DNA of 64,000 nucleotides from Escherichia phage vB_EcoM_TH18. The DNA is taken from the sequence record ON075799; one strand, written 5' to 3'. Below the pieces are notes generated by a model, which ran no database searches, was not told the DNA's origin, and saw nothing but the letters and a program-made list of their open reading frames with translations. Within the stretch, counting starts at the first letter, position 1. Each line of letters begins with the position of its first letter. The position numbers and the translations under genes are program-made. Positions 18-58,498 of this stretch are shown here, piece after piece.

Positions 18-94
18 TGGTGTGACGGACAGGATTCGAACCTGTGACCACCTAGTCTTCAGCAAGGCACTCTACCAACTGAGTTACCGTCACA
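18..94 (-). tRNA. tRNA-Phe (anticodon GAA)
   Basis: Hand-folded cloverleaf on minus strand: 7-bp acceptor, D-stem actc/gagt, anticodon loop CTGAAGA, T-loop GGTTCGAATCC, CCA encoded. Confidence 0.75.
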
Positions 95-98
95 TAAT

Positions 99-175
99 TG
101 GTGGGCGATGAGGGACTCGAACCCCCAAAATTCAGGTTCTAAGCCTGACATGTATACCAATTCCATCAATCGCCC
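99..175 (-). tRNA. tRNA, anticodon UAG (Leu-like decoding) but short variable loop; atypical
   Basis: Minus strand: acceptor gggcgat/atcgccc, anticodon stem tcagg/cctga with loop CTTAGAA, T-arm with TTCGAGT loop, CCA encoded; type-I length (77 nt) despite Leu-type anticodon. Confidence 0.55.
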
Positions 176-189
176 ATCTATATTAACAG

Positions 190-381
190 TTATGGTTTTC
201 CACGATACACAGAAATAGTTTTCCCATTAGCATTGATAACATAAGCGGTCTGATCCTCAGACAAAAACACTTTTTGATCAATGCCGGAAATAGCTATAGA
301 CTTTTGATGAGCACAATACCCAACAATTTTCCCACAAAAAATTTGTTCATCATTTGGAGAGACGACTTTAACTGTTAACAT
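190..381 (-). CDS. hypothetical small protein (63 aa; ORF 190-462 trimmed to internal ATG)
   Basis: Internal ATG at 381 preceded by AGAGGA; the longer ORF would overlap tRNA-Pro. Confidence 0.4.
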   Translation of the reverse strand: MLTVKVVSPNDEQIFCGKIVGYCAHQKSIAISGIDQKVFLSEDQTAYVINANGKTISVYRGKP

Positions 382-423
382 GGTATCCTCTGTACATTTC
401 TGCTTTGATATGTTTATGTTTGT

Positions 424-501
424 TGGTCTGTCCGGTTGGATTTGAACCAACGACCTGGTCATCCCAAGTGACCCGCGCTACCCAAGCTGCGCTACGGACA
501 G
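424..501 (-). tRNA. tRNA-Pro (anticodon UGG)
   Basis: Minus strand: acceptor ctgtccg/cggacag, D-stem gcgc/gcgc, anticodon stem ggtca/tgacc loop CTTGGGA, T-loop TTCAAAT, CCA encoded. Confidence 0.75.
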
Positions 502-585
502 AGAAATGTAGATTTTAATTGTCCCAGAATCTACTAACTGGTATCGCTGGCTAGGTGATATCTGTGACTTGATTAAGTCAAGAAT

Positions 586-677
586 TGGCGGTTCCTGAAG
601 GATTCGAACCTTCGGTGGGGAGATTCATTCCCAACGGCTTAACAGGCCGTCACCATCGACCACTCGGTCAAAGAACC
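586..677 (-). tRNA. tRNA, type II-like (long variable arm), anticodon loop CTGTTAA (GUU?); identity uncertain
   Basis: Minus strand: acceptor ggttctt/aggaacc, anticodon stem acggc/gccgt, extra stem-loop ggga-atgaatc-tccc, T-arm gaagg-TTCGAAT-ccttc, CCA encoded; 92 nt. Confidence 0.5.
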
Positions 678-686
678 TGAATATTT

Positions 687-763
687 TGGTGGATCTGGTT
701 GGGGTCGAACCAACAATCTCTCGATTAAAAGTCGAGTGACTTAAACCATTTGGCTACAAATCC
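687..763 (-). tRNA. tRNA-Lys (anticodon UUU)
   Basis: Minus strand: acceptor ggatttg/cagatcc, anticodon stem ctcga/tcgag loop CTTTTAA, T-arm gttgg-TTCGACC-ccaac, CCA encoded. Confidence 0.7.
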
Positions 764-780
764 GTTAAATTATCTTTAAA

Positions 781-810
781 ATAGCTAATTACTCGCACAT
801 AATTAGCTAT
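781..810. repeat. perfect 10-bp-stem hairpin (atagctaatt / aattagctat) in inter-tRNA spacer
   Basis: Exact inverted repeat with 10-nt loop read directly from sequence. Confidence 0.6.
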
Positions 811-996
811 ACGCAACAACTCTCCAAGGAGAGCACACTAATGATCGATTACGATTATATGACTAAATTTAGACCATCATAAGTGTTTGGCTTACGCCAG
901 TAAAGAGCGGACTGCTCTGGGGTATCGGTAAGATGGTTGCAGCCATCTACCGAAAAATCACACCAAGCAACTAAACAAGCTACATTAAAGATAACT

Positions 997-1085
997 TGGA
1001 GGAGGCTGACAGAATCGAACTGTCACCATATCTCTACAGCGGGACTGGGTTCAAACCAGCTTGTGCACCATGCACCCCAGCCTCC
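997..1085 (-). tRNA. tRNA-Ser (anticodon UGA)
   Basis: Minus strand: acceptor ggaggct/agcctcc, anticodon loop TTTGAAC, long variable arm, T-arm gacag-TTCGATT-ctgtc, CCA encoded; 89 nt. Confidence 0.7.
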
Positions 1086-1156
1086 AAAGATAGCCTCTGC
1101 CGAGGATATACACCCAACAAAGGAGGCGCTCAGGTCAGAAGAAATCTGAGCCTTAA

Positions 1157-1250
1157 TGGAGGAAGATGCCAGACTTGAACTGGCACACCCATTTCTGGGT
1201 TACTATCTCCTTAGCAGGGAGATCCCTTACCAAATTAGGGTTAATCTTCC
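1157..1250 (-). tRNA. tRNA-Ser (anticodon GCU)
   Basis: Minus strand: acceptor ggaagat/atcttcc, anticodon stem tctcc/ggaga loop CTGCTAA, long variable arm, T-arm gccag-TTCAAGT-ctggc, CCA encoded. Confidence 0.7.
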
Positions 1251-1271
1251 AATACCTTAGTAATTAAAAAC

Positions 1272-1361
1272 TGGTGGAGAAGGAGAGAATCGAACTCTCA
1301 AGCCGTTTTACCAGTCAGCACATTTCCAATGTGCTTTCGTCGCCAATCGATTTGCTTCTCC
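1272..1361 (-). tRNA. tRNA-Ser (anticodon GGA)
   Basis: Minus strand: acceptor ggagaag/cttctcc, anticodon stem gcaca/tgtgc loop TTGGAAA, long variable arm, T-arm gagag-TTCGATT-ctctc, CCA encoded. Confidence 0.65.
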
Positions 1362-1370
1362 GTTTTAACT

Positions 1371-1446
1371 TGGCAGGGGATGGTTGATTCGAACAACCGA
1401 TCACGGGGTCAAAGCCCGTTGCATTAGGCCACTATGCTAATCCCCT
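1371..1446 (-). tRNA. tRNA-Gln (anticodon UUG)
   Basis: Minus strand: acceptor aggggat/atcccct, D-stem gcat/atgc, anticodon stem acggg/cccgt loop CTTTGAC, T-loop TTCGAAT, CCA encoded. Confidence 0.7.
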
Positions 1447-1452
1447 TTTGCA

Positions 1453-1527
1453 CGAGAGTGAGGAATAGAACCTCTTAGTCACTGGTTTTGGAGGCCAGCC
1501 TTCACCCAGTGAAGTTACGCTACTCTC
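1453..1527 (-). tRNA. tRNA-Trp (anticodon CCA)
   Basis: Minus strand: anticodon loop CTCCAAA, T-arm with TTCTATT loop, acceptor gagagt/actctc; CCA not encoded. Confidence 0.6.
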
Positions 1528-1535
1528 ATTAAAAA

Positions 1536-2093
1536 CTATTTTCGAAAAGGACTTATGAAAAATGCCAACATCACTCTCTCTCTTGAAAAAGCTCTGTCTT
1601 CAGGAACCACACTCTTCAGTTTCCAACCGACATAAATTCGCCAGTAAAATTGTTTTCCAAACAATCTAAAAGACGGGACAAACGCGAATACACCCCACGC
1701 ATTGTCATTCCACATCAACAAATAGCCTTGTTGGTTATCCTCCACATCAGAGCTTACATGGAGGTTTCCTTTCCACTTTGTCACAGATGTGATTTCACGT
1801 CCAAGTACGTGATAGGAGAAATTGTAGGCTTTATTTCTCCACAACCAAGCAACTCGTTGTAGGTAAACACCAAAACTTCCTATTTTACGGACTTCTTCCC
1901 ATCTCTCTATGTGTCCTCTATCACCGTCTATAGGATTATCATATGTCTCCATCCACCTGAAAATATAAGGCAGATGCCCTGTCTTCTCATTATAGAACGG
2001 AACAACAAAAGGAGCCAGAATAACACAGAGAACCGACATAACTGGGTCAAGAGGTGCTAACAGGATCCACGATAAATATTTTAAGTATCTCAT
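1536..2093 (-). CDS. hypothetical protein (185 aa, aromatic-rich, hydrophobic N-terminus)
   Basis: Long ORF between tRNA sub-clusters; no recognisable motif. Confidence 0.5.
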   Translation of the reverse strand: MRYLKYLSWILLAPLDPVMSVLCVILAPFVVPFYNEKTGHLPYIFRWMETYDNPIDGDRGHIERWEEVRKIGSFGVYLQRVAWLWRNKAYNFSYHVLGREITSVTKWKGNLHVSSDVEDNQQGYLLMWNDNAWGVFAFVPSFRLFGKQFYWRIYVGWKLKSVVPEDRAFSRERVMLAFFISPFRK

Positions 2094-2320
2094 GCAGGAT
2101 CAAGCCTAGATATAATGTACTGGTTTAAATCTGAATATGGGAAGATACTTTCAAAGATAACCTGTTTAAATCTGAAGCCGCACAAACCGAAAAGTACCTT
2201 CTGACACTCACCAAAAGAGCAATCTTTACCAACTTTTATCACAACCGTATCGGCAATCTGCACACTTTCTATCTCTTTAGATTCATGATGCCGTACTATG
2301 ATTACTTTAGAAACCATCAT
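2090..2320 (-). CDS. hypothetical protein (76 aa)
   Basis: ORF whose stop overlaps the start of the downstream gene by 4 bp (translational coupling pattern). Confidence 0.4.
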   Translation of the reverse strand: MMVSKVIIVRHHESKEIESVQIADTVVIKVGKDCSFGECQKVLFGLCGFRFKQVIFESIFPYSDLNQYIISRLDPA

Positions 2321-2445
2321 ACTCGTCCATATTAAAGCCTTCTACTAAAGATAGTAGATGTCTAGGGTTGGACCGCAAACGCAACCCCATGGAATTTGTT
2401 ACGGTCTTCAGTTGACCCAAGCGGATTTCATTGACATCTTTTAAC

Positions 2446-2520
2446 TGGAGCATCCAGAGGGTATCGAACCCTCGACTTCAGCTTGGAAGGCTGTAGTTTT
2501 CCCAATTAAACTATGGATGC
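2446..2520 (-). tRNA. tRNA-Gly (anticodon UCC)
   Basis: Minus strand: acceptor gcatcca/tggatgc, D-stem gttt/aaac, anticodon loop CTTCCAA, T-arm gaggg-TTCGATA-ccctc, CCA encoded. Confidence 0.7.
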
Positions 2521-2525
2521 ATATT

Positions 2526-2601
2526 TGGTGGGAGTGGTAGGCTCTGCCCCTACGTCCTCTCGATTATCGGTCGAGCGATCTACTAACTGATCTACACTCC
2601 C
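2526..2601 (-). tRNA. tRNA-Ile-like (anticodon GAU), atypical T-loop
   Basis: Minus strand: acceptor gggagtg/cactccc, D-stem gatc/gatc, anticodon stem ctcga/tcgag loop CCGATAA, T-stem gtagg/cctac but loop GGCAGAG lacks TTC; CCA encoded. Confidence 0.5.
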
Positions 2602-2665
2602 AAACTGTACTGGCCCAACAACCACGATTGGAGGGTATCGTCACACATCAAAGCCAGTACAGTTT
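2602..2665. repeat. 13-bp-stem hairpin (aaactgtactggc / gccagtacagttt, 38-nt loop) filling the spacer between two tRNAs
   Basis: Exact inverted repeat read from sequence; no T-loop, so not a tRNA. Confidence 0.55.
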
Positions 2666-2669
2666 TAGT

Positions 2670-2759
2670 TGGTGTGCCGTGATAGAGTCGAACTACCCGA
2701 GTCCCTTTCGAGACAGGAGATTTACAGTCTCCCCCGCTACCCCTACGGTCTAACGACAC
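2670..2759 (-). tRNA. tRNA-Tyr (anticodon GUA), type II
   Basis: Minus strand: acceptor gtgtcgt/acggcac (one G-U), anticodon stem ggaga/tctcc loop CTGTAAA, long variable region, T-arm ggtag-TTCGACT-ctatc, CCA encoded; D-arm irregular. Confidence 0.6.
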
Positions 2760-2760
2760 A

Positions 2761-3108
2761 TTAACCTTGTTTGAATTGAACAATATCCGTCGAGAACGGT
2801 TTAGCTGCCTTAATAGGTGCTTTTTCTGAGTTATCTTTTTCGAGTAACTCTTCGTTTTCCTCATCAAAGTAATCAGAAAGCATCTGCTCACCTTTCTCAA
2901 TAACATAACGAGCTATATTTTCTCTGATATTGTCTTTTGTATTCACATTCTTCATCAAATCCCTAAGAACCTGATGAGCTTCAGGAATCATTGCAATCAG
3001 ATTCGTTTTTAAATCTAGGATATTTTTCTCTAACTGAATTGCATTAGATTCCTCTTTCAGAGGACGACCTTTTCCTCTTCTACGTTTTGTAAGCTGCTTA
3101 GTAGCCAT
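2761..3108 (-). CDS. hypothetical protein (115 aa from internal ATG; acidic C-terminal half)
   Basis: ORF 2761-3333 trimmed to the Met at 3108 because the upstream part overlaps tRNA-Cys. Confidence 0.45.
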   Translation of the reverse strand: MATKQLTKRRRGKGRPLKEESNAIQLEKNILDLKTNLIAMIPEAHQVLRDLMKNVNTKDNIRENIARYVIEKGEQMLSDYFDEENEELLEKDNSEKAPIKAAKPFSTDIVQFKQG

Positions 3109-3193
3109 TTTAAAACCCCACTTAATGATATTATCAAATAAAAACATATCTGTCAAGTGGTATTTTAACATATTTACCAAGAAATTGAAAGTT

Positions 3194-3270
3194 TGGAGCA
3201 CGGTGTCGGACTTGAACCGACATATATCTGTTTTGCAGACAGATCCGTAACCAAATTCCAGCAACCGTGC
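3194..3270 (-). tRNA. tRNA-Cys (anticodon GCA)
   Basis: Minus strand: acceptor gcacggt/accgtgc, anticodon stem tctgt/acaga loop CTGCAAA, T-arm with TTCAAGT loop, CCA encoded. Confidence 0.7.
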
Positions 3271-3356
3271 AATAAGTACCCCAGGTAGAGAACCTATAGA
3301 GTGGGTCTTACGAGCCGCGCTGACGATTCTCAAGTTGGGGTTAATCTGGTCGAGGA

Positions 3357-3433
3357 GACAGGATTCGAACCTGTGACCTACGGCTTAGAAGGCCGCTGCT
3401 CTATCCAACTGAGCTACACCCCGAAAATAAGAA
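3357..3433 (-). tRNA. tRNA-Arg (anticodon UCU)
   Basis: Minus strand: canonical D-arm tagctcagttggatagagc, anticodon stem gcggc/gccgt loop CTTCTAA, T-arm acagg-TTCGAAT-cctgt, CCA encoded. Confidence 0.7.
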
Positions 3434-3623
3434 TGCTTTATAGTGTATGGTTACTCAACCTCACTCCAACTTCCACAGTTGGTGCTCTACGAGCATGACT
3501 ACGTTTGAAATCAACGTTGCGCACCGATAGCTTTCTCACGCATTGTATGCCTCATTCCCAACAAATGCTGATCAGACATTTATATCGAATAATATAAGCT
3601 AATACACTATAAAACAAACTTGT

Positions 3624-3720
3624 GGCTGGGTGATGGAATCGAACCACCTATGTATTCAACGGCTTCCCCGTCTATTTTCAGGATTATAAATCCTCGCCCT
3701 TGCCAAAGGGCTTACCCAGC
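3624..3720 (-). tRNA. tRNA-like gene, unusually long (about 97 nt); anticodon loop TTTATAA (UAU?) with about 30-nt insertion before the T-arm
   Basis: Minus strand: acceptor gctgggt/acccagc, D-stem gccc/gggc, 4-bp anticodon stem agga/tcct, extra hairpin acgg-ggaag-ccgt, T-arm ggtgg-TTCGATT-ccatc; CCA not encoded. Confidence 0.4.
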
Positions 3721-3722
3721 AT

Positions 3723-3797
3723 TGGTGCTCGCAGCAGGTTTCGAACCTGCAACCCCCTGCTTACAAGGCAGGTGCTCTACCGTTGAGCTATACGAGC
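3723..3797 (-). tRNA. tRNA-Thr (anticodon UGU)
   Basis: Minus strand: acceptor gctcgta/tgcgagc, D-stem gctc/gagc, anticodon stem cctgc/gcagg loop CTTGTAA, T-arm gcagg-TTCGAAA-cctgc, CCA encoded. Confidence 0.75.
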
Positions 3798-4162
3798 AAT
3801 AAGACATTGCTTCCGATTAACAGCCTTGAGGCTTTACAGACCATATCTTGTGAGCCATAACCTGTGCCAAGGATTTCAGATGATAAACGAAATTTTATCT
3901 TTCAAGAGTCAACTTTCAAGTTTCATCTTTTACATTTAACCATTGACCTTTATTGTATGAACTTTTACTTAGTGGAAACAACAAGGCATCTTCGTGTGCC
4001 TCGCTGCATCTATGTCCTGTATTATCCTCATACATATACGATACATGGTGGGGGATATTTAACCTCCAACCCCCAGGAGGCAAGATGATGTAAACTTCGT
4101 TAATCAAAAGCAATGTTTTAAATTTCAAAACAAAGGAACGATAATGATATTATCAGAGCCTT

Positions 4163-4810
4163 TTAGAGAGAGTGCTCAATCTCAATTTCTGTCTTAGCGT
4201 TTGACTCAGACAACGCAAAATCAACGTTAGACAAGAAATCTTCAATCTCTTCTTCAAGAGAACGAATCTTAGAAGCCAGTTCAAGAGGATCCACAACCGA
4301 TGGTGTGTTCATCATTCGAATAGGAGCTTCCACAGTCTTAATCTGCTCTGCATCTGGCGCTTTATCACGTTGGATATATGGCGCTCTTGCATTTTCAAGT
4401 TTATCTTCCAGAGATTTTTCTTCTTTTGCCAGAAGAAGCTGTGCAGAAGCACGCTGTGCACAAAGTTTGTTTAACAACTCTTGTTTAAAGCAAATCGTCC
4501 GTTTGCGTTCGATTGCCTCAGCAACTGTCATAGACACATTACCAATTTTGACAATTGTCTCAGCATTAGACTTAACAATTTTTGCTTTCAGTTCATCACG
4601 CACTGCCAAGAGGTCTTGCAGACTTTGATAGTCGTTGATCGCAGATTTCTTAAAATCATCAACAGAGCCGATATAACCCGGAATCTTACAATTATTCTCA
4701 GTTCCTTTTGCAATCTTAATACAATCAAGATTGTAGATACGCTTATTGATCTTATCTTCAATTTTAGAGATAGAAGCAAGTGCACGAGTTACGGAAATCT
4801 TAGTAGACAT
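4163..4810 (-). CDS. hypothetical protein (215 aa, predicted coiled-coil, K/E-rich)
   Basis: Long ORF; composition only. Confidence 0.55.
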   Translation of the reverse strand: MSTKISVTRALASISKIEDKINKRIYNLDCIKIAKGTENNCKIPGYIGSVDDFKKSAINDYQSLQDLLAVRDELKAKIVKSNAETIVKIGNVSMTVAEAIERKRTICFKQELLNKLCAQRASAQLLLAKEEKSLEDKLENARAPYIQRDKAPDAEQIKTVEAPIRMMNTPSVVDPLELASKIRSLEEEIEDFLSNVDFALSESNAKTEIEIEHSL

Positions 4811-4883
4811 GCGATCTCTCCTATGTAAATCAGCTTTGATAAAGTAACTATCCAGAAAAACAAAAACTATGTCAAGAAAAATT

Positions 4884-5075
4884 TTAATCTTTTACAGCAT
4901 CTTTTATAGAATCACAAAGATCTTGAACAACATCAGATGTCGGTGACAAAATCATCTCGTCGGCTGCTGCTATAGCATCTGATGCTAAATCAACAAACGG
5001 AGTTGTTACCGCAGAAGTCACTTCAACAGCCGTTATTGTTACTTCGCTTGCAATCTTAAGCAAAGATCCTATCAT
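4884..5075 (-). CDS. hypothetical protein (63 aa)
   Basis: Small ORF downstream of the tRNA-Met gene. Confidence 0.3.
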   Translation of the reverse strand: MIGSLLKIASEVTITAVEVTSAVTTPFVDLASDAIAAADEMILSPTSDVVQDLCDSIKDAVKD

Positions 5076-5151
5076 AATCTCAACCCTCCTGAATATCCGT
5101 GATTCCCTTTATTTAACGACGCTGGCTCACGGTGGCACTCTCGTCAATAAA

Positions 5152-5475
5152 CTATTTTTTAGTTTTCTTACCGTTTTCTACAGAAATGCTTGTTTTCTGT
5201 TTCGCTTCTCGTTCGCGCTTTGTTTTCCCAGTGCGAATACGATATGAAGCAGAAATAACTTCACCACCAATGACACGAGACACAGATTCGTAATACATTT
5301 CAGTATTACCGTCTTCATCTTTGCGTTTTTTCAGAACTGCTACAGTTTGCGTTTTACCACCAAGGCGCACATCGTGCGGTGCAGAATGTGTCTGCGTGGA
5401 TTTTGATCCAAACTGAAAAGGTTGCTTTATCGCCTCGATAGCTGACACCTTTTTAGCAGACTGTTTCTTAGCCAT
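5152..5475 (-). CDS. hypothetical basic protein (107 aa from internal ATG, Lys-rich)
   Basis: Internal ATG at 5475 preceded by GGAGG; Lys-rich termini. Confidence 0.45.
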   Translation of the reverse strand: MAKKQSAKKVSAIEAIKQPFQFGSKSTQTHSAPHDVRLGGKTQTVAVLKKRKDEDGNTEMYYESVSRVIGGEVISASYRIRTGKTKREREAKQKTSISVENGKKTKK

Positions 5476-5527
5476 TAAGTTTTCTCCTCCGAAAACAATA
5501 AACATAGTTTATTTCGTGTGCCACATT

Positions 5528-5604
5528 TGGTGGCCCCTGCTGGACTTGAACCAGCGACCAAGCGATTATGAGTCACCTGCTCTATCCAACTGAGCTAAGG
5601 GGCC
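5528..5604 (-). tRNA. tRNA-Met (anticodon CAU; elongator-type or Ile2-type)
   Basis: Minus strand: acceptor ggcccct/aggggcc (G1-C72 paired), canonical D-arm, anticodon loop CTCATAA, T-arm gctgg-TTCAAGT-ccagc, CCA encoded. Confidence 0.7.
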
Positions 5605-55167: not shown

Positions 55168-55601
55168 GTATTACCTAAATAATCTTTCAAATAGCTAACG
55201 TCAAGTTCCCATTCCTGACGCTTACTTCTCTCACGATACAAAGCAAATGCATCTTCAACATATTTTTCGGCTACATGTTGGGGGATGTTGTTGACTTTCA
55301 TGAAATGCTTCAAAGCTATATGCCCTCTACCTCGTAAACTAGCCAAACCGATATGTTTAACTTCGTGACACGATGGACATAGTGCAATAAGACCTTTCAG
55401 GGTGATCTTACCATCTTCAAAATCCCACACCTCGTGGCATTCAACAGGGTGTTTATGCCCTTTCCCTCCGCAGATTTCACATTTGTAACCTGCCTCTACA
55501 TAACATTTCTTTCTTACCTTGTCCCATTCTGATTTTGATAAGTAAGAACGTAGATTGTTGAACCATGCCGTTTTAGGTACTAGCTCAATAGTTAATTTCA
55601 T
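55164..55601 (-). CDS. HNH endonuclease
   Basis: CEICGG...H...CPSCHEVKH: paired CxxC zinc ligands with His-Me finger pattern. Confidence 0.55.
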   Translation of the reverse strand: MKLTIELVPKTAWFNNLRSYLSKSEWDKVRKKCYVEAGYKCEICGGKGHKHPVECHEVWDFEDGKITLKGLIALCPSCHEVKHIGLASLRGRGHIALKHFMKVNNIPQHVAEKYVEDAFALYRERSKRQEWELDVSYLKDYLGNT

Positions 55602-55779
55602 TCTTATTTCTCCCGAAGTACATATGCAAAATTCTCATCCAACTAGGCATTGGTAAAAGAGCCAGTAGAGAACATATCATTAATGCCTTCAAATCATAAT
55701 CTTGGCAAACAAGCCATCCAATGCTTACCAAACATAAAGACAGGATAAAACTTAACAACATTATTAACATATTTTTCAT
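55585..55779 (-). CDS. small membrane protein (64 aa)
   Basis: Hydrophobic segments. Confidence 0.35.
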   Translation of the reverse strand: MKNMLIMLLSFILSLCLVSIGWLVCQDYDLKALMICSLLALLPMPSWMRILHMYFGRNKNEINY

Positions 55780-55799: not shown

Positions 55800-56033
55800 T
55801 TAATGAAAGGTTCTTTTTGATGGGCAGCTTCCAGCACCTTCTTTAACCACTGCTTCTGTTCTATGCCCGTCGCTATAGATACAGACTTTGGAATCACCAT
55901 CACGATATTCTGCCTCAAGGCTCAAGGTGTTTGTGGTAGAAATTGCTAGAGGACTAAACAGAAGTGATGAGAAGAGGATAATGTTTTTAGCTTTCATTTT
56001 TACCACCTTTGAAAAAGCCCGATGAAAGCTCAT
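55800..56033 (-). CDS. small secreted protein (77 aa, signal peptide)
   Basis: N-terminal signal-like segment KNIILFSSLLFSPLAIS. Confidence 0.4.
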   Translation of the reverse strand: MSFHRAFSKVVKMKAKNIILFSSLLFSPLAISTTNTLSLEAEYRDGDSKVCIYSDGHRTEAVVKEGAGSCPSKRTFH

Positions 56034-56051
56034 CGGGCATACGGTATATTA

Positions 56052-56942
56052 TTACTTACCTGTAGGTAATGTTACAAACGGGGCTTGTGCTCCACTAGTC
56101 ATATACACAGGTGTTACACCATTCCATTTATTAATTGCTTCAAGCTGCATAATCTCTGGATTTTTACGCAGGGCAGCACCACGTAATTCAATAGACTCTG
56201 CATCACCTTTGGCAATCAGAATTTTGGCATCTGCCTCGCCTTGTGCCTGTAGACGTTTAGACTCAGCCTCACCACGAGCAGCCTCGATACGTTTCTGAGC
56301 TTCAGCTTTCACTTGCTGAATTTCGTTTTCACGAAGCAGTGCTTTTTGGGTTGCTTCGATCTTAGCATTGATGGAAGCCGTCACCTGTGGTGGATACACC
56401 AGATCGTCTGTATAAGACAGCTTCACAAGCACAATACCAACAGGATCAAGTTTTTGTTTCAGATGCTTGGTTACACGCTCAAGCAGTTGTGTTTTTCCAT
56501 CTCCAGCTAGTGTACCGATATCCATTGAACCAGCTTCCTTGATCAAGGCATCAGAGATATTCTGGCGAATATTTACCTCTGTAATTTCTTGCACACCTTT
56601 ACGGTACGTCTGGAAAATAGTTGTTACTTTAGAACGATCAACATAATATTCAACACCAATTTTCGCAGAAACTGTCATAGAGTCTTTTGTCTGGAAATTG
56701 AATGGTTGATCATAGTTATGCAACTGGTTAAAAGTCGGGAACTGATAAATCTCTTCGTTCCAAGTCAGCCAGTATTTACCTACCCCAACTTCTTGTTGTT
56801 GGACACCTTTTTCATCGCCGTACAGGTCAACTTTAACGCCAACGTAACCTGCTGGAACGGTTGCACGCTCACAACCTGTCAGACCAATTGCAGAGACTGC
56901 AAGAATACCTGCAAAAATAACTCGTTTAATAGATTTAAACAT
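56052..56942 (-). CDS. SPFH/band-7 domain lipoprotein (HflC/HflK-like)
   Basis: Lipobox LTGC after a signal peptide; Ala/Glu-rich coiled-coil tail typical of SPFH proteins. Confidence 0.7.
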   Translation of the reverse strand: MFKSIKRVIFAGILAVSAIGLTGCERATVPAGYVGVKVDLYGDEKGVQQQEVGVGKYWLTWNEEIYQFPTFNQLHNYDQPFNFQTKDSMTVSAKIGVEYYVDRSKVTTIFQTYRKGVQEITEVNIRQNISDALIKEAGSMDIGTLAGDGKTQLLERVTKHLKQKLDPVGIVLVKLSYTDDLVYPPQVTASINAKIEATQKALLRENEIQQVKAEAQKRIEAARGEAESKRLQAQGEADAKILIAKGDAESIELRGAALRKNPEIMQLEAINKWNGVTPVYMTSGAQAPFVTLPTGK

Positions 56943-56955
56943 TAAAACAATCTCC

Positions 56956-57168
56956 TTACTTTTTACGTTTCCCAGTCTTCTTCTTAGAAGACTTGCCTAA
57001 GAATACCTTACGCCCCCAGACAAAAATAATCATCGGAGACACAAGCAACATTGCAAATCCACACACTACCATCAGTGTGTCTTTTGCAGACAGCATTGTT
57101 GGCACTACAAATCCAATAATGACACAGATAAAAACAAGAATACCAACGCAATTTAAATACGTCTTCAC
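56956..57168 (-). CDS. small membrane protein, possible NfeD-like partner of the SPFH protein
   Basis: 70 aa, two transmembrane segments, Lys-rich tail; immediately upstream of the SPFH gene. Confidence 0.4.
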   Translation of the reverse strand: MKTYLNCVGILVFICVIIGFVVPTMLSAKDTLMVVCGFAMLLVSPMIIFVWGRKVFLGKSSKKKTGKRKK

Positions 57169-57170
57169 AA

Positions 57171-57488
57171 TTATCCCTCACTACCAAACAAAATATCCAC
57201 CTCAGCCATTTGTTCGATCTTCTCTTCAAGATCTTTACGTTTCTTTCCTGCTTGGTATTGTCGATCAAACAGAGCATTGATCATGGCATTAATAAATTTA
57301 GGATCGTAGCCGTGACTTTCTTTTTCTACTGAAACGATATCTTTAAGCATGTCACCTGCGTCTTTTTGCATGATGCGAGCTTCAACACCTTCCAAGATAA
57401 CTTTTTTCAGTCGATCGCACTCGACAGGATCAGAAGGTAAAGTATTTTTCAGTTCAATTTTTGTTTTAGGCATACGTGGCATTTTCAT
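57171..57488 (-). CDS. hypothetical protein (105 aa)
   Basis: ORF with strong upstream promoter. Confidence 0.5.
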   Translation of the reverse strand: MKMPRMPKTKIELKNTLPSDPVECDRLKKVILEGVEARIMQKDAGDMLKDIVSVEKESHGYDPKFINAMINALFDRQYQAGKKRKDLEEKIEQMAEVDILFGSEG

Positions 57489-57512: not shown

Positions 57513-57540
57513 ATTATAAAATTTTTATATGGTTTGTCAA
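57513..57540 (-). promoter_or_regulatory. sigma70 promoter (TTGACA-16-TATAAT) on the minus strand
   Basis: Consensus hexamers read on the reverse complement. Confidence 0.6.
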
Positions 57541-57753: not shown

Positions 57754-57808
57754 TTTTCACCACACTTCCAAAACAAGCCCCTCATAAGGGGCTATTGTTA
57801 TAGATTGA

Positions 57809-58498
57809 TTATACTTTAATAATTGGTTCAACAAAGGTAATTGGTTTCATAATTTTACCATTGCCATCCATAAAAGCAACACGTTCACCGACCTGAGCAT
57901 GGATTACAGAATTATAACGCCCTTTTGAACGGCGTTCAATCTCTTTACATTCAAACTCCAACATCTCAAGTTCTTTATCCTTGTAGTCAGGATATTTAAC
58001 AAGTAGTTGTGTGATTGTTGGGAATTTAGAGTCGTTGGAATTAAGAACCTCTTCCATATTGTATCCAAGATTGATATCCAAATTATAGCATAAAGCCACA
58101 ACTTGTTTCAAAATCTCTGCATAATCAGAGATCGTCAACTTATCTTTGTGCACCAGGTCAAGTAAGCTGCCAATTTTCAACTCAACCATGTCTGATGGGA
58201 CCATACATGACTCCCATTTTTCAGTGTCCCATTGCACCAAACGCAAAGCGTAAGAGCTTACGACAAAAAGATCACATGCTGCATCAATAACCCCTGCCTT
58301 GTCGGATGAGGATAAGGCCTCAATAAGCTCAGAAAGCTCCTCTTTAATAAGATTTGTTTGTAGTTTAATATCTGTTGACATTCCTCCACGCCCAATCCTT
58401 GCCACCTCATTCCATTGGGCAACACGATGACCATATGCAATCATGTTATCAGGCTTGCTCATGGCTTCAAGTGTGGAATACATATTTTTTAAATTCAT
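57809..58498 (-). CDS. MazG-like nucleotide pyrophosphohydrolase (putative)
   Basis: EELSELIEA ... DAACDL spacing resembles the MazG EExxE/D motif pair. Confidence 0.4.
   Translation of the reverse strand: MNLKNMYSTLEAMSKPDNMIAYGHRVAQWNEVARIGRGGMSTDIKLQTNLIKEELSELIEALSSSDKAGVIDAACDLFVVSSYALRLVQWDTEKWESCMVPSDMVELKIGSLLDLVHKDKLTISDYAEILKQVVALCYNLDINLGYNMEEVLNSNDSKFPTITQLLVKYPDYKDKELEMLEFECKEIERRSKGRYNSVIHAQVGERVAFMDGNGKIMKPITFVEPIIKV

What the first reader, a model, noticed from the sequence alone, without database searches (positions are those of the whole stretch)
56052..57168. SPFH (band-7) lipoprotein with a small membrane-protein partner encoded by the phage
The 296-aa protein has a lipoprotein signal (LTGC lipobox) and an Ala/Glu-rich coiled-coil tail characteristic of HflK/HflC-type SPFH proteins. 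The gene immediately upstream encodes a 70-aa two-transmembrane-segment protein that could be an NfeD-like partner. Such pairs organise membrane microdomains and modulate FtsH-type proteases, so a phage copy might protect phage proteins from host proteolysis or remodel the membrane before lysis.
Basis: partly seen in the sequence, partly recalled or inferred. Interest (0 to 1): 0.5.

Follow-up and report, generated by a model that had tools for sequence, protein, structure and literature searches.

The report
Phage SPFH lipoprotein with hairpin partner
This phage carries a prohibitin/HflK-like (SPFH) scaffold protein that is lipid-anchored outside the cytoplasm. It is paired with a tiny two-helix membrane protein that sits directly upstream of the SPFH gene in about 90% of the related loci examined. 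The pair is a real and widespread phage module whose job is still unknown, and the partner is not the classical NfeD partner.

Summary
Both ORFs exist exactly as described, on the minus strand of a Vequintavirinae (PVP-SE1/rV5-like) myophage.

**SPFH protein (296 aa).** It is a bona fide SPFH protein:
- Pfam Band_7, E 2e-20.
- The AlphaFold model matches prohibitin, HflK/C, stomatin and QmcA cages at Foldseek probability 1.0.
- It has a lipobox (L21-T-G-C24) and a 76-residue Ala/Glu-rich helix.

**Upstream protein (70 aa).** It is a two-helix hairpin with a basic tail. It is not NfeD: there is no OB-fold domain, no Pfam or PDB match, and no similarity to YjeT.

**The new point.** The hairpin is a strictly coupled partner of the SPFH gene.
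- A hairpin profile finds it directly upstream on the same strand in 89 of 96 SPFH loci, usually with a 4-nt overlap.
- It is present in 19 of 19 bacterial (prophage) loci.
- In 9 of 9 places sampled starting from the hairpin, a Band_7 gene lies directly downstream.
- The carriers include myo-, podo-, P2-like, lambdoid, N4-like, crAss-like and Lak phages of diderm hosts.

In the window the pair lies in a three-gene unit between a perfect sigma-70 promoter and a strong terminator, inside the replication module.

The function (FtsH caging, superinfection exclusion or lysis control) remains inferred. I rate it a new variant of a known kind, of moderate interest.

The parts
57513..57540 (-). Sigma-70 consensus promoter (TTGACA, 16 nt spacer, TATAAT; 12 of 12 matches) heading the three-gene unit
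   Evidence: PVP-SE1 has an annotated promoter at the equivalent place, upstream of its gene 115.
57171..57488 (-). First gene of the unit: a 105-aa protein (phrog_639, 'transcriptional regulator'). Its stop codon lies 2 nt before the hairpin's GTG start. It is linked to the pair only within Vequintavirinae.
   Evidence: The stop/start geometry is read.
56956..57168 (-). Hairpin partner gene: 70 aa, GTG start, two transmembrane helices, invariant Pro23 and near-invariant Ser27 (motif P-x-[LM]-[LIV]-S-[SA]-x-[DN]) at the outer end of helix 1, and a basic cytoplasmic tail
   Evidence: (phrog_1130). Coupling to SPFH is shown.
56943..56955 (-). 13-nt intergenic spacer. The hairpin's TAA stop overlaps the Shine-Dalgarno sequence (TAAGGAG) of the SPFH gene.
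   Evidence: Read. In 43 other loci the two genes overlap by 4 nt.
56052..56942 (-). SPFH (band-7) lipoprotein gene, 296 aa
56871..56942 (-). Lipoprotein signal peptide with lipobox L21-T22-G23-C24. The residue after the Cys is Glu.
   Evidence: Conservation is shown.
56298..56861 (-). SPFH/Band_7 domain, residues 28-215
   Evidence: 73.7 bits against a cut-off of 23.6; fold confirmed
56163..56390 (-). Long Ala/Glu-rich helix, residues 185-260. It contains three 11-residue repeats (ARGEAESKRLQ / AQGEADAKILI / AKGDAESIELR), one more than most relatives have.
56055..56162 (-). Conserved C-terminal tail, residues 261-296 (invariant P262, W273, G275, P278, P288). Residues 270-273 and 277-296 have low confidence in the monomer model. 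It is a candidate for the cap of an oligomeric cage.
   Evidence: the role is inferred by analogy with HflK/C and prohibitin cages
56007..56038 (-). Intrinsic terminator: a 9-bp stem with 6 G-C pairs, GCCCGATGA-gctt-TCATCGGGC, followed by TTTTT. It begins 14 nt after the SPFH stop codon.

Best explanation
This is a self-contained two-gene envelope module of the phage.

**What the parts do.** The lipoprotein is exported and lipid-anchored on the periplasmic side, the same side as HflK/C. There its SPFH domain, long helix and conserved C-terminal tail would assemble into a homo-oligomeric ring or cage lying on the membrane. The 70-aa hairpin is probably made in step with it, because the two genes abut or overlap. 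It sits in the inner membrane with both ends in the cytoplasm and its conserved Pro-x-x-x-Ser end at the periplasmic interface. It acts as the dedicated integral-membrane subunit of the scaffold, either as an anchor/adaptor or as a resident of the enclosed patch.

**When it is made.** Probably early, by host RNA polymerase, from a consensus sigma-70 promoter.

**What it probably does.** The most likely job is to fence off a patch of inner membrane and its client proteins, as HflK/C does for FtsH. This would change what the host's membrane quality control can reach during infection.

**Shown:** gene structure, SPFH fold, lipobox, hairpin architecture, strict pairing, operon signals.
**Inferred:** oligomeric cage, inner-membrane location, early timing, physical contact between the two proteins.
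**Speculative (about 0.3):** FtsH as the client.
For: **SPFH identity.** Pfam Band_7 at E 2.4e-20. AlphaFold model with pLDDT 78: a beta-rich N-terminal part, helices, then a helix spanning residues 185-260. The top Foldseek PDB matches are the cage-forming SPFH proteins prohibitin 8rrh, HflC/HflK 7vhq and 7wi3, stomatin, erlin and QmcA, all at probability 1.0. hhalign against E. coli HflK gives probability 90 and 26% identity over 174 columns.

**Periplasmic side.** The lipobox is LTGC. Only about 4 residues separate Cys24 from the first strand, so the domain is held against the membrane. Some orthologues at 55-59% identity have an uncleaved N-terminal transmembrane anchor instead of the Cys and still carry the hairpin gene. 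This places the shared function at the inner membrane.

**Pairing.**
- The hairpin HMM hits directly upstream on the same strand in 89 of 96 SPFH loci; 43 of these have a 4-nt overlap.
- It is present in 19 of 19 loci from bacterial genomes.
- It is present in Schitoviridae, Otagovirus, the Lak megaphage and, weakly, a crAss-like phage.
- Starting from the hairpin, 9 of 9 places have a Band_7 gene directly downstream, as do SSU5 and Tribble.
- The distance matrices of the two proteins correlate: r = 0.63, with 0 of 999 Mantel permutations reaching it.

**Hairpin topology.** The tail is basic and the turn neutral. AlphaFold predicts a helix-turn-helix.

**Operon.** A 12/12 sigma-70 promoter and a strong terminator bracket the unit. 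It lies within the replication and nucleotide-metabolism genes. In temperate relatives the pair sits in the early lytic/replication operon, not at lysogenic-conversion sites.

**Single SPFH gene per phage**, which points to a homo-oligomer.
Against: - No direct evidence of oligomerisation, of contact between hairpin and SPFH, or of any client.
- The residue after the lipidated Cys is Glu. In homologues it is E 37, G 15, D 8, S 6. By the E. coli +2 rule (my own knowledge) this predicts Lol-dependent transfer to the outer membrane, where a 3-residue periplasmic turn of an inner-membrane hairpin could not reach it.
- A prophage-encoded HflK/C-like protein of Pasteurella was reported in outer-membrane vesicles (PMC9872710).
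- Similarity to HflK/C is remote, and I could not map FtsH-contact residues.
- Early timing rests only on promoter consensus and gene position.
- More distant phage SPFH genes (Erwinia M7, Caulobacter, Bacillus, Staphylococcus, Halorubrum, Streptococcus) lack this hairpin. The SPFH protein can therefore work without it.
Confidence: 0.55

Rival explanations
1. Superinfection exclusion or envelope hardening. The pair is made early and sits on the outer face of the inner membrane (or on the outer membrane). It blocks DNA entry or envelope damage by later-arriving phages, in the manner of T4 Imm/Sp or T5 Llp.
For: The pair is an outward-facing, membrane-anchored, small early module. In the window it is followed by further exported or membrane proteins: a 77-aa secreted protein and a 64-aa two-helix protein. 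It is widespread and patchy across unrelated phages, like accessory competition genes. T5 Llp is likewise an early lipoprotein (abstracts listed).
Against: No sequence similarity to any known exclusion protein in Pfam or PADLOC. In temperate phages the pair lies in the lytic early operon rather than in prophage-expressed positions. No experiment bears on it.
Confidence: 0.2
2. Lysis control. The hairpin is a holin-like or pinholin-like protein, and the SPFH scaffold organises or restrains it, setting lysis timing or helping export of a lytic enzyme.
For: The hairpin has the class II holin build: about 70 aa, two transmembrane helices, both ends inside, a basic tail. Two of 26 family members give weak Pfam holin hits at E about 0.009. 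In Staphylococcus Kayvirus phages the SPFH gene mbpS lies next to the holin-like gene mbpV, between the endolysin gene and tgl, and the authors suggest a role in Tgl export (PMC7150955).
Against: In the window the pair sits in the replication module behind a consensus sigma-70 promoter, with no lysis gene nearby. In P2-like relatives the pair lies between cox and the replication gene; that these phages carry their lysis genes elsewhere is my own knowledge, not checked here. The holin hits are far below Pfam thresholds.
Confidence: 0.12
3. One reading: a classical SPFH-NfeD pair of the HflK/HflC type that modulates FtsH.
For: SPFH genes are commonly in operons with NfeD genes (PMC13086221). The phage SPFH protein resembles HflK/C and prohibitin, the two SPFH types that work with FtsH-family proteases, and faces the same side of the membrane as HflK/C.
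Against: The partner has no NfeD OB-fold domain, no Pfam NfeD hit in 26 members and no PDB hit. The HflK and HflC equivalog scores are far below their cut-offs. There is one SPFH gene instead of a K/C pair. The anchor is a lipid, not a transmembrane helix.
Confidence: 0.05
4. The SPFH lipoprotein is sorted to the outer membrane. It works there (for example by masking receptors or stabilising the outer membrane) independently of physical contact with the inner-membrane hairpin, which would be only a co-regulated second component.
For: Most homologues lack Asp after the lipidated Cys. A prophage HflK/C-like protein of Pasteurella is released in outer-membrane vesicles and signals through TLR1/2, as triacylated lipoproteins do (PMC9872710).
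Against: Orthologues with a transmembrane anchor cannot leave the inner membrane, yet they keep the same hairpin. The strict overlap of the two genes suggests co-assembly. I could not test whether PM0222 belongs to this family.
Confidence: 0.1

Closest known systems
E. coli HflK/HflC-FtsH complex
   Same: SPFH domain followed by a long coiled-coil helix and a C-terminal cap region. The bulk of the protein is on the periplasmic side of the inner membrane. It is among the best structural matches (7vhq, 7wi3, 9cz2) and the best sequence match in the PDB.
   Different: One gene instead of a K/C pair. A lipid anchor instead of a transmembrane helix. 26% identity to HflK over 174 aligned columns, and scores far below the HflK/HflC model cut-offs. 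Encoded by a phage. Its small membrane partner is upstream and unrelated to yjeT, the 65-aa gene downstream of hflC. Binding to FtsH is untested.
Prohibitin (PHB1/PHB2) cages
   Same: Top Foldseek hit (8rrh_A, E 1.2e-15, 23% identity). Relatives are annotated 'prohibitin family' in GenBank.
   Different: Eukaryotic mitochondrial hetero-oligomer with a transmembrane anchor and no hairpin partner.
SPFH-NfeD operon pairs (for example QmcA-YbbJ, PDB 8z5g)
   Same: An SPFH gene tightly linked to a gene for a small membrane protein. QmcA is a structural match.
   Different: NfeD is defined by a soluble OB-fold domain, which the hairpin lacks. The QmcA-YbbJ cage protrudes into the cytoplasm (PMC13086221), whereas the phage protein is periplasmic.
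Kayvirus MbpS (SPFH) and MbpV (small holin-like membrane protein)
   Same: A phage SPFH gene adjacent to a gene for a small membrane protein with a basic C-terminus (PMC7150955).
   Different: Gram-positive host. MbpV has a single helix and is not detected by the hairpin profile in the related Staphylococcus phage examined. It lies in the lysis region, not the replication region.
PHROG families phrog_200 ('lipoprotein') and phrog_1130 ('membrane protein')
   Same: Both window proteins are clear members: E 2.4e-87 and 3.9e-20.
   Different: These catalogue entries carry no function and do not record that the two families are an obligate pair.

Membership tests
SPFH / Band 7 superfamily (PF01145) | Profile match above Pfam's gathering score | tested here: met
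   73.7 bits against a cut-off of 23.6, E 2.4e-20, residues 28-215 covering profile positions 2-176 of 176
SPFH / Band 7 superfamily (PF01145) | SPFH alpha/beta fold followed by a long coiled-coil helix | tested here: met
   AlphaFold model with pLDDT 78.1 and a helix at residues 185-260. Foldseek probability is 1.0 to prohibitin, HflK/C, stomatin, erlin, QmcA and flotillin.
SPFH / Band 7 superfamily (PF01145) | N-terminal membrane anchor | tested here: met
   Signal peptide plus lipobox LTGC. 80 of 118 homologues have a lipobox; others have a hydrophobic anchor.
SPFH / Band 7 superfamily (PF01145) | Assembly into a large ring or cage | not testable with these tools
   Only monomer prediction was available. 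The conserved C-terminal tail is suggestive only.
HflK / HflC (FtsH modulators) | Score above the NCBIfam equivalog cut-offs | tested here: not met
   HflK 43.7 bits against 159.4; HflC 22.6 against 134.4
HflK / HflC (FtsH modulators) | Two paralogous SPFH genes forming a hetero-oligomer | tested here: not met
   One SPFH gene in the 64-kb window. 567 matching places in 564 phage records.
HflK / HflC (FtsH modulators) | SPFH domain on the periplasmic side | tested here: met
   A lipoprotein signal implies export
HflK / HflC (FtsH modulators) | Binds FtsH and modulates it | not testable with these tools
   The published contact (HflK Arg191 with FtsH residues 62-64, cited in PMC12048511) could not be mapped reliably onto the remote alignment.
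NfeD (partner of SPFH proteins) | C-terminal OB-fold NfeD domain (PF01957) | tested here: not met
   70 aa consisting of two helices and a tail. No NfeD hit in any of 26 members at E up to 1. A family profile finds nothing in the PDB at E up to 10.
NfeD (partner of SPFH proteins) | Encoded in an operon with an SPFH gene | tested here: met
   Directly upstream in 89 of 96 loci, 19 of 19 and 9 of 9
YjeT / DUF2065 (small membrane protein downstream of hflC) | Sequence-profile similarity | tested here: not met
   hhalign probability 0.9%
Class II holins / pinholins | About 70 aa, two transmembrane helices, both ends inside, charged C-terminus | tested here: met
   This is architecture only; the Pfam holin hits are sub-threshold, in 2 of 26 members.
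Class II holins / pinholins | Encoded in the lysis cassette next to an endolysin gene | tested here: not met
   The neighbours are a regulator, a MazG-like pyrophosphohydrolase, a DNA ligase, an HNH endonuclease and an exonuclease.
Known anti-phage defence or exclusion proteins (PADLOC) | Profile match | tested here: not met
   Only one marginal, partial SspF hit (E 0.0013, 66 residues) for the SPFH protein, and none for the hairpin

The most novel reading that the evidence does not exclude
The hairpin plus the periplasmic SPFH protein is a minimal, portable 'cage kit'. Phages of Gram-negative hosts, from P2-like prophages to Lak megaphages, would use it to build their own HflK/C-like enclosure on the host inner membrane early in infection. 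The enclosure would capture or wall off a host membrane machine: FtsH, or a membrane-acting defence or entry factor. If true, this would be a new class of host-takeover or competition module. It would also be the first SPFH system with a defined, non-NfeD integral-membrane subunit.
Probability: 0.3. Interest if true: 0.7.

Novelty: new variant of a known kind. Interest (0 to 1): 0.45.

Why it matters
SPFH proteins are universal, yet their bacterial functions are still poorly defined. Phage copies have been noted in genome papers since 2006 without any function. As late as 2026 one paper says the reason an SPFH gene sits in a phage genome 'remains unclear' (PMC13239085; see also PMC1524935 and PMC8540360).

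This work shows that the phage version comes as a strict two-gene unit with a 50-80-residue hairpin. That gives a compact and genetically tractable system: two small genes, with invariant Pro23 and near-invariant Ser27 as obvious mutation targets. It can be used to ask what an SPFH scaffold needs in the membrane and what it encloses.

The module occurs in about 1% of sequenced phage genomes (564 of 50,697 records), including therapeutic-candidate phages and Stx-converting and other prophages. Its effect on the host envelope is therefore of practical interest.

The results also correct misleading database names for these genes, such as 'serine protease', 'transposase fusion protein' and 'transferase'.

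Tried and rejected
1. **NfeD homology of the hairpin.** Rejected: no Pfam NfeD hit in 26 members and no PDB hit.
2. **Homology to YjeT**, the small membrane protein encoded downstream of hflC. Rejected: hhalign probability 0.9%.
3. **Known defence or exclusion systems.** PADLOC gave only a marginal, partial SspF hit.
4. **A larger cassette.** The 105-aa regulator and the 77-aa secreted protein travel with the pair only within Vequintavirinae, and the 64-aa membrane protein has no relatives in the loci. The conserved core is therefore just the two genes.
5. **Chance adjacency.** Rejected by the counts and by the Mantel test.
6. **Mapping the published HflK-FtsH contact (Arg191).** Inconclusive, because the residue numbering did not line up with an Arg in the remote hhalign alignment.
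7. **Modelling the complex.** I did not attempt it. The structure tool takes one chain, limited to window or database proteins, so a fused or paired alignment could not be submitted.
9. **Single-sequence search for hairpin relatives.** It found only 5 near-identical proteins. The profile search reached 50, all unnamed and without Pfam domains.
10. **Literature.** Searches for a functional study of phage SPFH proteins found only genome-paper remarks.
Full report
**1. Observation**

ORF 56052-56942 (minus strand, ATG start) encodes 296 aa. ORF 56956-57168 (minus strand, GTG start) encodes 70 aa.

The window is phage DNA.
- The region is 100% identical to Escherichia phages 18-1-2, 19-1-2 and 24-2-1.
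- The SPFH gene alone is about 80-83% identical at DNA level to Seunavirus phages such as Salmonella phage PVP-SE1.
- At protein level the 296-aa product is 90% identical to PVP-SE1 gp117, annotated 'lipoprotein'.
- The neighbourhood is the replication and nucleotide-metabolism module: ribonucleotide reductase, exonucleases, DNA ligase, Sir2, RNA ligase, HNH endonuclease and a MazG-like pyrophosphohydrolase.

**2. The 296-aa protein is an SPFH lipoprotein**

- Pfam Band_7 matches at E 2.4e-20 (73.7 bits against a cut-off of 23.6) over residues 28-215.
- PHROG phrog_200 'lipoprotein' matches at 2.4e-87.
- An AlphaFold model built on 22 homologues has mean pLDDT 78. It shows an N-terminal helix (the signal peptide), a beta-rich part, helices, and then one helix spanning residues 185-260.
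- Foldseek against the PDB returns only SPFH cage proteins at the top, all at probability 1.0: prohibitin 8rrh (E 1.2e-15), HflC/HflK 7vhq and 7wi3, stomatin, erlin, QmcA 8z5g and flotillin.

The N-terminus, MFKSIKRVIFAGILAVSAIGLTGC, is a textbook lipoprotein signal with Cys24. Of 118 close homologues, 80 have a lipobox in the same place. The helix at 185-260 is 34% Ala+Glu, against 17% for the whole protein.

It is not an HflK or HflC orthologue.
- The NCBIfam equivalog scores are 43.7 against 159.4 and 22.6 against 134.4.
- hhalign against E. coli HflK gives probability 90 with 26% identity over 174 columns.
- There is one SPFH gene per phage, not a pair.

**3. The 70-aa protein is a hairpin, and it is not NfeD**

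Hydropathy shows two hydrophobic segments, and the last 18 residues carry a net charge of +10. AlphaFold predicts helix 2-27, a three-residue turn, and helix 31-64. By the positive-inside rule both ends are cytoplasmic and the turn is periplasmic.

None of 26 family members matches Pfam NfeD at E up to 1, and the scattered weak hits are to unrelated membrane families. A family profile finds nothing in the PDB at E up to 10, although the PDB contains the QmcA-YbbJ complex. The protein is simply too small to hold the OB-fold domain that defines NfeD.

It is also unrelated to YjeT, the 65-aa membrane protein encoded downstream of hflC in E. coli (hhalign probability 0.9%).

**4. The hairpin is nevertheless a dedicated partner**

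This is the main result.

I first noticed similar small ORFs directly upstream of SPFH genes in very different phages:
- P2-like P88;
- a Klebsiella prophage;
- Desulfovibrio podophage ProddE;
- Pseudomonas Bruynoghevirus PaCe, where it lies 427 nt upstream of the SPFH start with two genes between;
- an unannotated ORF in Erwinia phage Pastis.

I then built a profile and searched every ORF in the fetched loci.
- With the final profile, 89 of 96 loci holding an SPFH homologue have a hit directly upstream on the same strand. In 43 of these the two genes overlap by 4 nt.
- Of the seven misses, one shows the same protein by eye (L050). One has a truncated SPFH gene. One (L082) is a short contig with a partial SPFH gene, where earlier profile rounds did find the hairpin. 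Four are remote SPFH genes.
- All 19 SPFH loci found in one-genome-per-species bacterial genomes have the hairpin: directly upstream in 17, and about 770 nt upstream in the E. coli and Shigella loci L130 and L131.
- The pair is also present in an Alcaligenes N4-like phage, Pseudomonas phage PHB09 and Prevotella megaphage Lak-B2 (hairpin E 3.7e-9, though its SPFH protein is only 26% identical). It is weakly detected in crAss-like phage cr128_1.

The link holds in the other direction too.
- The two weakest tblastn hits of the hairpin among phages (SSU5 and Tribble) are each followed by a gene annotated 'lipoprotein' of 276-278 aa, the size of the SPFH protein.
- For five hairpin relatives taken from the 5.8-billion-protein collection, all nine places shown have a Band_7 gene directly downstream.
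- Pairwise distances of the two proteins correlate (r = 0.63; 0 of 999 permutations reach it). The hairpin diverges much faster: mean 76% against 42%.

Only Pro23 is invariant and Ser27 nearly so. The motif P-x-[LM]-[LIV]-S-[SA]-x-[DN] sits at the outer end of helix 1.

The hairpin profile finds nothing next to the remote SPFH genes of Erwinia M7, Caulobacter, Bacillus, Staphylococcus, Streptococcus and Halorubrum viruses, or of a jumbo Erwinia phage. Several of these have other small membrane proteins adjacent. In my sample, the pair was found only in phages and prophages of hosts with two membranes (apart from one metagenome bin labelled Oscillospiraceae, L124).

**5. Transcription unit**

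On the minus strand, a perfect sigma-70 promoter (TTGACA, 16 nt, TATAAT; 57540-57513) precedes three genes.
- A 105-aa gene (57488-57171; phrog_639, 'transcriptional regulator').
- The hairpin gene, whose GTG start lies 2 nt after the previous stop codon.
- The SPFH gene, 13 nt further on. The hairpin's stop codon lies inside the SPFH gene's Shine-Dalgarno sequence.

A strong hairpin-plus-T-run terminator (56038-56017) begins 14 nt after the SPFH stop codon. PVP-SE1 has an annotated promoter at the same place.

The regulator and the downstream 77-aa secreted protein accompany the pair only in Vequintavirinae, so the conserved core is the two genes.

In temperate relatives the pair lies inside the early lytic/replication operon: between cox and the replication gene in P2-like prophages, and next to the DNA polymerase, recombination or DUF3310 genes in others. 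It does not lie at typical prophage-expressed positions.

**6. How it most likely works**

*Shown:* an exported, lipid-anchored SPFH protein with the full set of elements seen in cage-forming relatives; a strictly coupled inner-membrane hairpin; a compact operon with host-type signals.

*Inferred:*
- The SPFH protein forms a homo-oligomeric ring or cage on the periplasmic face of the inner membrane.
- The hairpin is its integral-membrane subunit. It may supply in trans the membrane-spanning helices that HflK/C carry in cis, or it may be a resident of the enclosed patch.
- The unit is made early.

The argument for the inner membrane is that orthologues 55-59% identical use an uncleaved transmembrane anchor instead of the lipid, and they keep the same hairpin.

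The argument against is the residue after the Cys. It is Glu here, and Asp in only 8 of 80 homologues with a lipobox. By the E. coli sorting rule (my own knowledge) this predicts transfer to the outer membrane. A prophage HflK/C-like protein of Pasteurella was found in outer-membrane vesicles (PMC9872710), although I could not check that it belongs to this family.

The best structural relatives are exactly the SPFH proteins that enclose FtsH-type proteases. [quoted passage not shown] I therefore rank an HflK/C-like caging of an inner-membrane client first, with FtsH as the specific client at only about 0.3. The rivals are early superinfection exclusion or envelope protection (0.2), lysis control with the hairpin as a holin-like protein (0.12; see the Kayvirus mbpV-mbpS pair in the lysis region, PMC7150955), and an outer-membrane role (0.1).

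**7. Comparison with what is known, and novelty**

SPFH genes in phages have been listed since 2006 (PMC1524935). They are usually discussed by analogy with HflK/C and lambda lysogeny (PMC4936722, PMC8540360, PMC10269572). A 2026 paper still says the reason for a phage copy is unclear (PMC13239085). Both window proteins fall in existing PHROG families.

I found no paper that describes the hairpin or its obligate pairing with the SPFH gene. The hairpin relatives in public databases are all 'hypothetical' and have no Pfam family.

I therefore rate this a new variant of a known kind: an SPFH-plus-partner operon in which the partner is a minimal non-NfeD hairpin, and the SPFH protein is a periplasmic lipoprotein carried by phages. 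Interest is moderate (0.45). The gene content is ordinary for this phage group, but the strict two-gene module is a useful and testable handle on SPFH function.

Noticed in passing
window 56163-56261 (residues 228-260 of the SPFH protein): The distal part of the long helix is made of three 11-residue repeats (ARGEAESKRLQ / AQGEADAKILI / AKGDAESIELR). Most relatives (about 278 aa) have one repeat fewer, and one relative has a different 11-residue insertion nearby. Length changes come in steps of 11, as expected if helix register in a coiled-coil wall must be kept.
   Followed up: partly
window 55800-56033 (-): The 77-aa ORF downstream of the SPFH gene overlaps the terminator stem at its 5' end. 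Its PHROG match (phrog_4641) starts at residue 20, so the real start is probably the internal ATG near 55997 (MKAKNIILF...). The product looks like a small secreted protein with two Cys residues. It travels with the pair only in Vequintavirinae.
   Followed up: partly
window 55585-55779 (-): A 64-aa ORF with two hydrophobic segments follows the secreted protein. It has no relatives in any fetched locus and no family match. PVP-SE1 has a two-helix membrane protein at the same position.
   Followed up: partly
window 57776-57793 (both strands): A 7-bp G+C-rich hairpin, scored as a terminator on both strands, lies just downstream of the MazG-like gene (57809-58498). It separates that gene from the promoter of the SPFH unit.
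   Followed up: no
L004:2313-2516 (Erwinia phage Pastis), L092:1799-2002 (crAss-like phage cr128_1), L101:1224-1475 (Prevotella phage Lak-B2): Hairpin-partner ORFs directly upstream of the SPFH genes are not annotated in these GenBank records (the Lak-B2 record has no annotation at all). In Burkholderia phage phiBt-TXDOH the annotated 49-aa protein BtTXDOH_37 is the hairpin.
   Followed up: yes
GenBank records (for example MK422455, OQ818705, CP000625, MK448978, MW882934): Homologues of the SPFH protein carry misleading product names: 'serine protease', 'bacteriophage/transposase fusion protein', 'B-cell receptor associated protein-related protein' and 'transferase'.
   Followed up: partly
L001:4844-5008 (PVP-SE1 gene 117) versus window 56943-56955: PVP-SE1-type phages have 140-158 nt, with an annotated 54-aa soluble ORF, between the hairpin and SPFH genes. 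In this window the gap is only 13 nt, so that ORF is absent here.
   Followed up: partly
window 18-5604 (-): A cluster of 15 tRNA genes lies at the start of the window (Phe, Leu, Pro, Asn, Lys, three Ser, Gln, Gly, Tyr, Cys, Arg, Thr, Met).
   Followed up: no
L130 and L131 (Shigella flexneri and E. coli chromosomes): In these two prophage loci the hairpin gene lies about 770 nt upstream of the SPFH gene rather than abutting it. This suggests an insertion between the two genes.
   Followed up: no
L113:2680-3090, L111:2806-3207 and L114:2646-3055: Some hairpin genes are followed by truncated Band_7 ORFs of 134-137 aa. One of these (L111) is cut by the contig end and another (L114) lies among transposase genes; these two are incomplete or decayed copies of the pair.
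   Followed up: no
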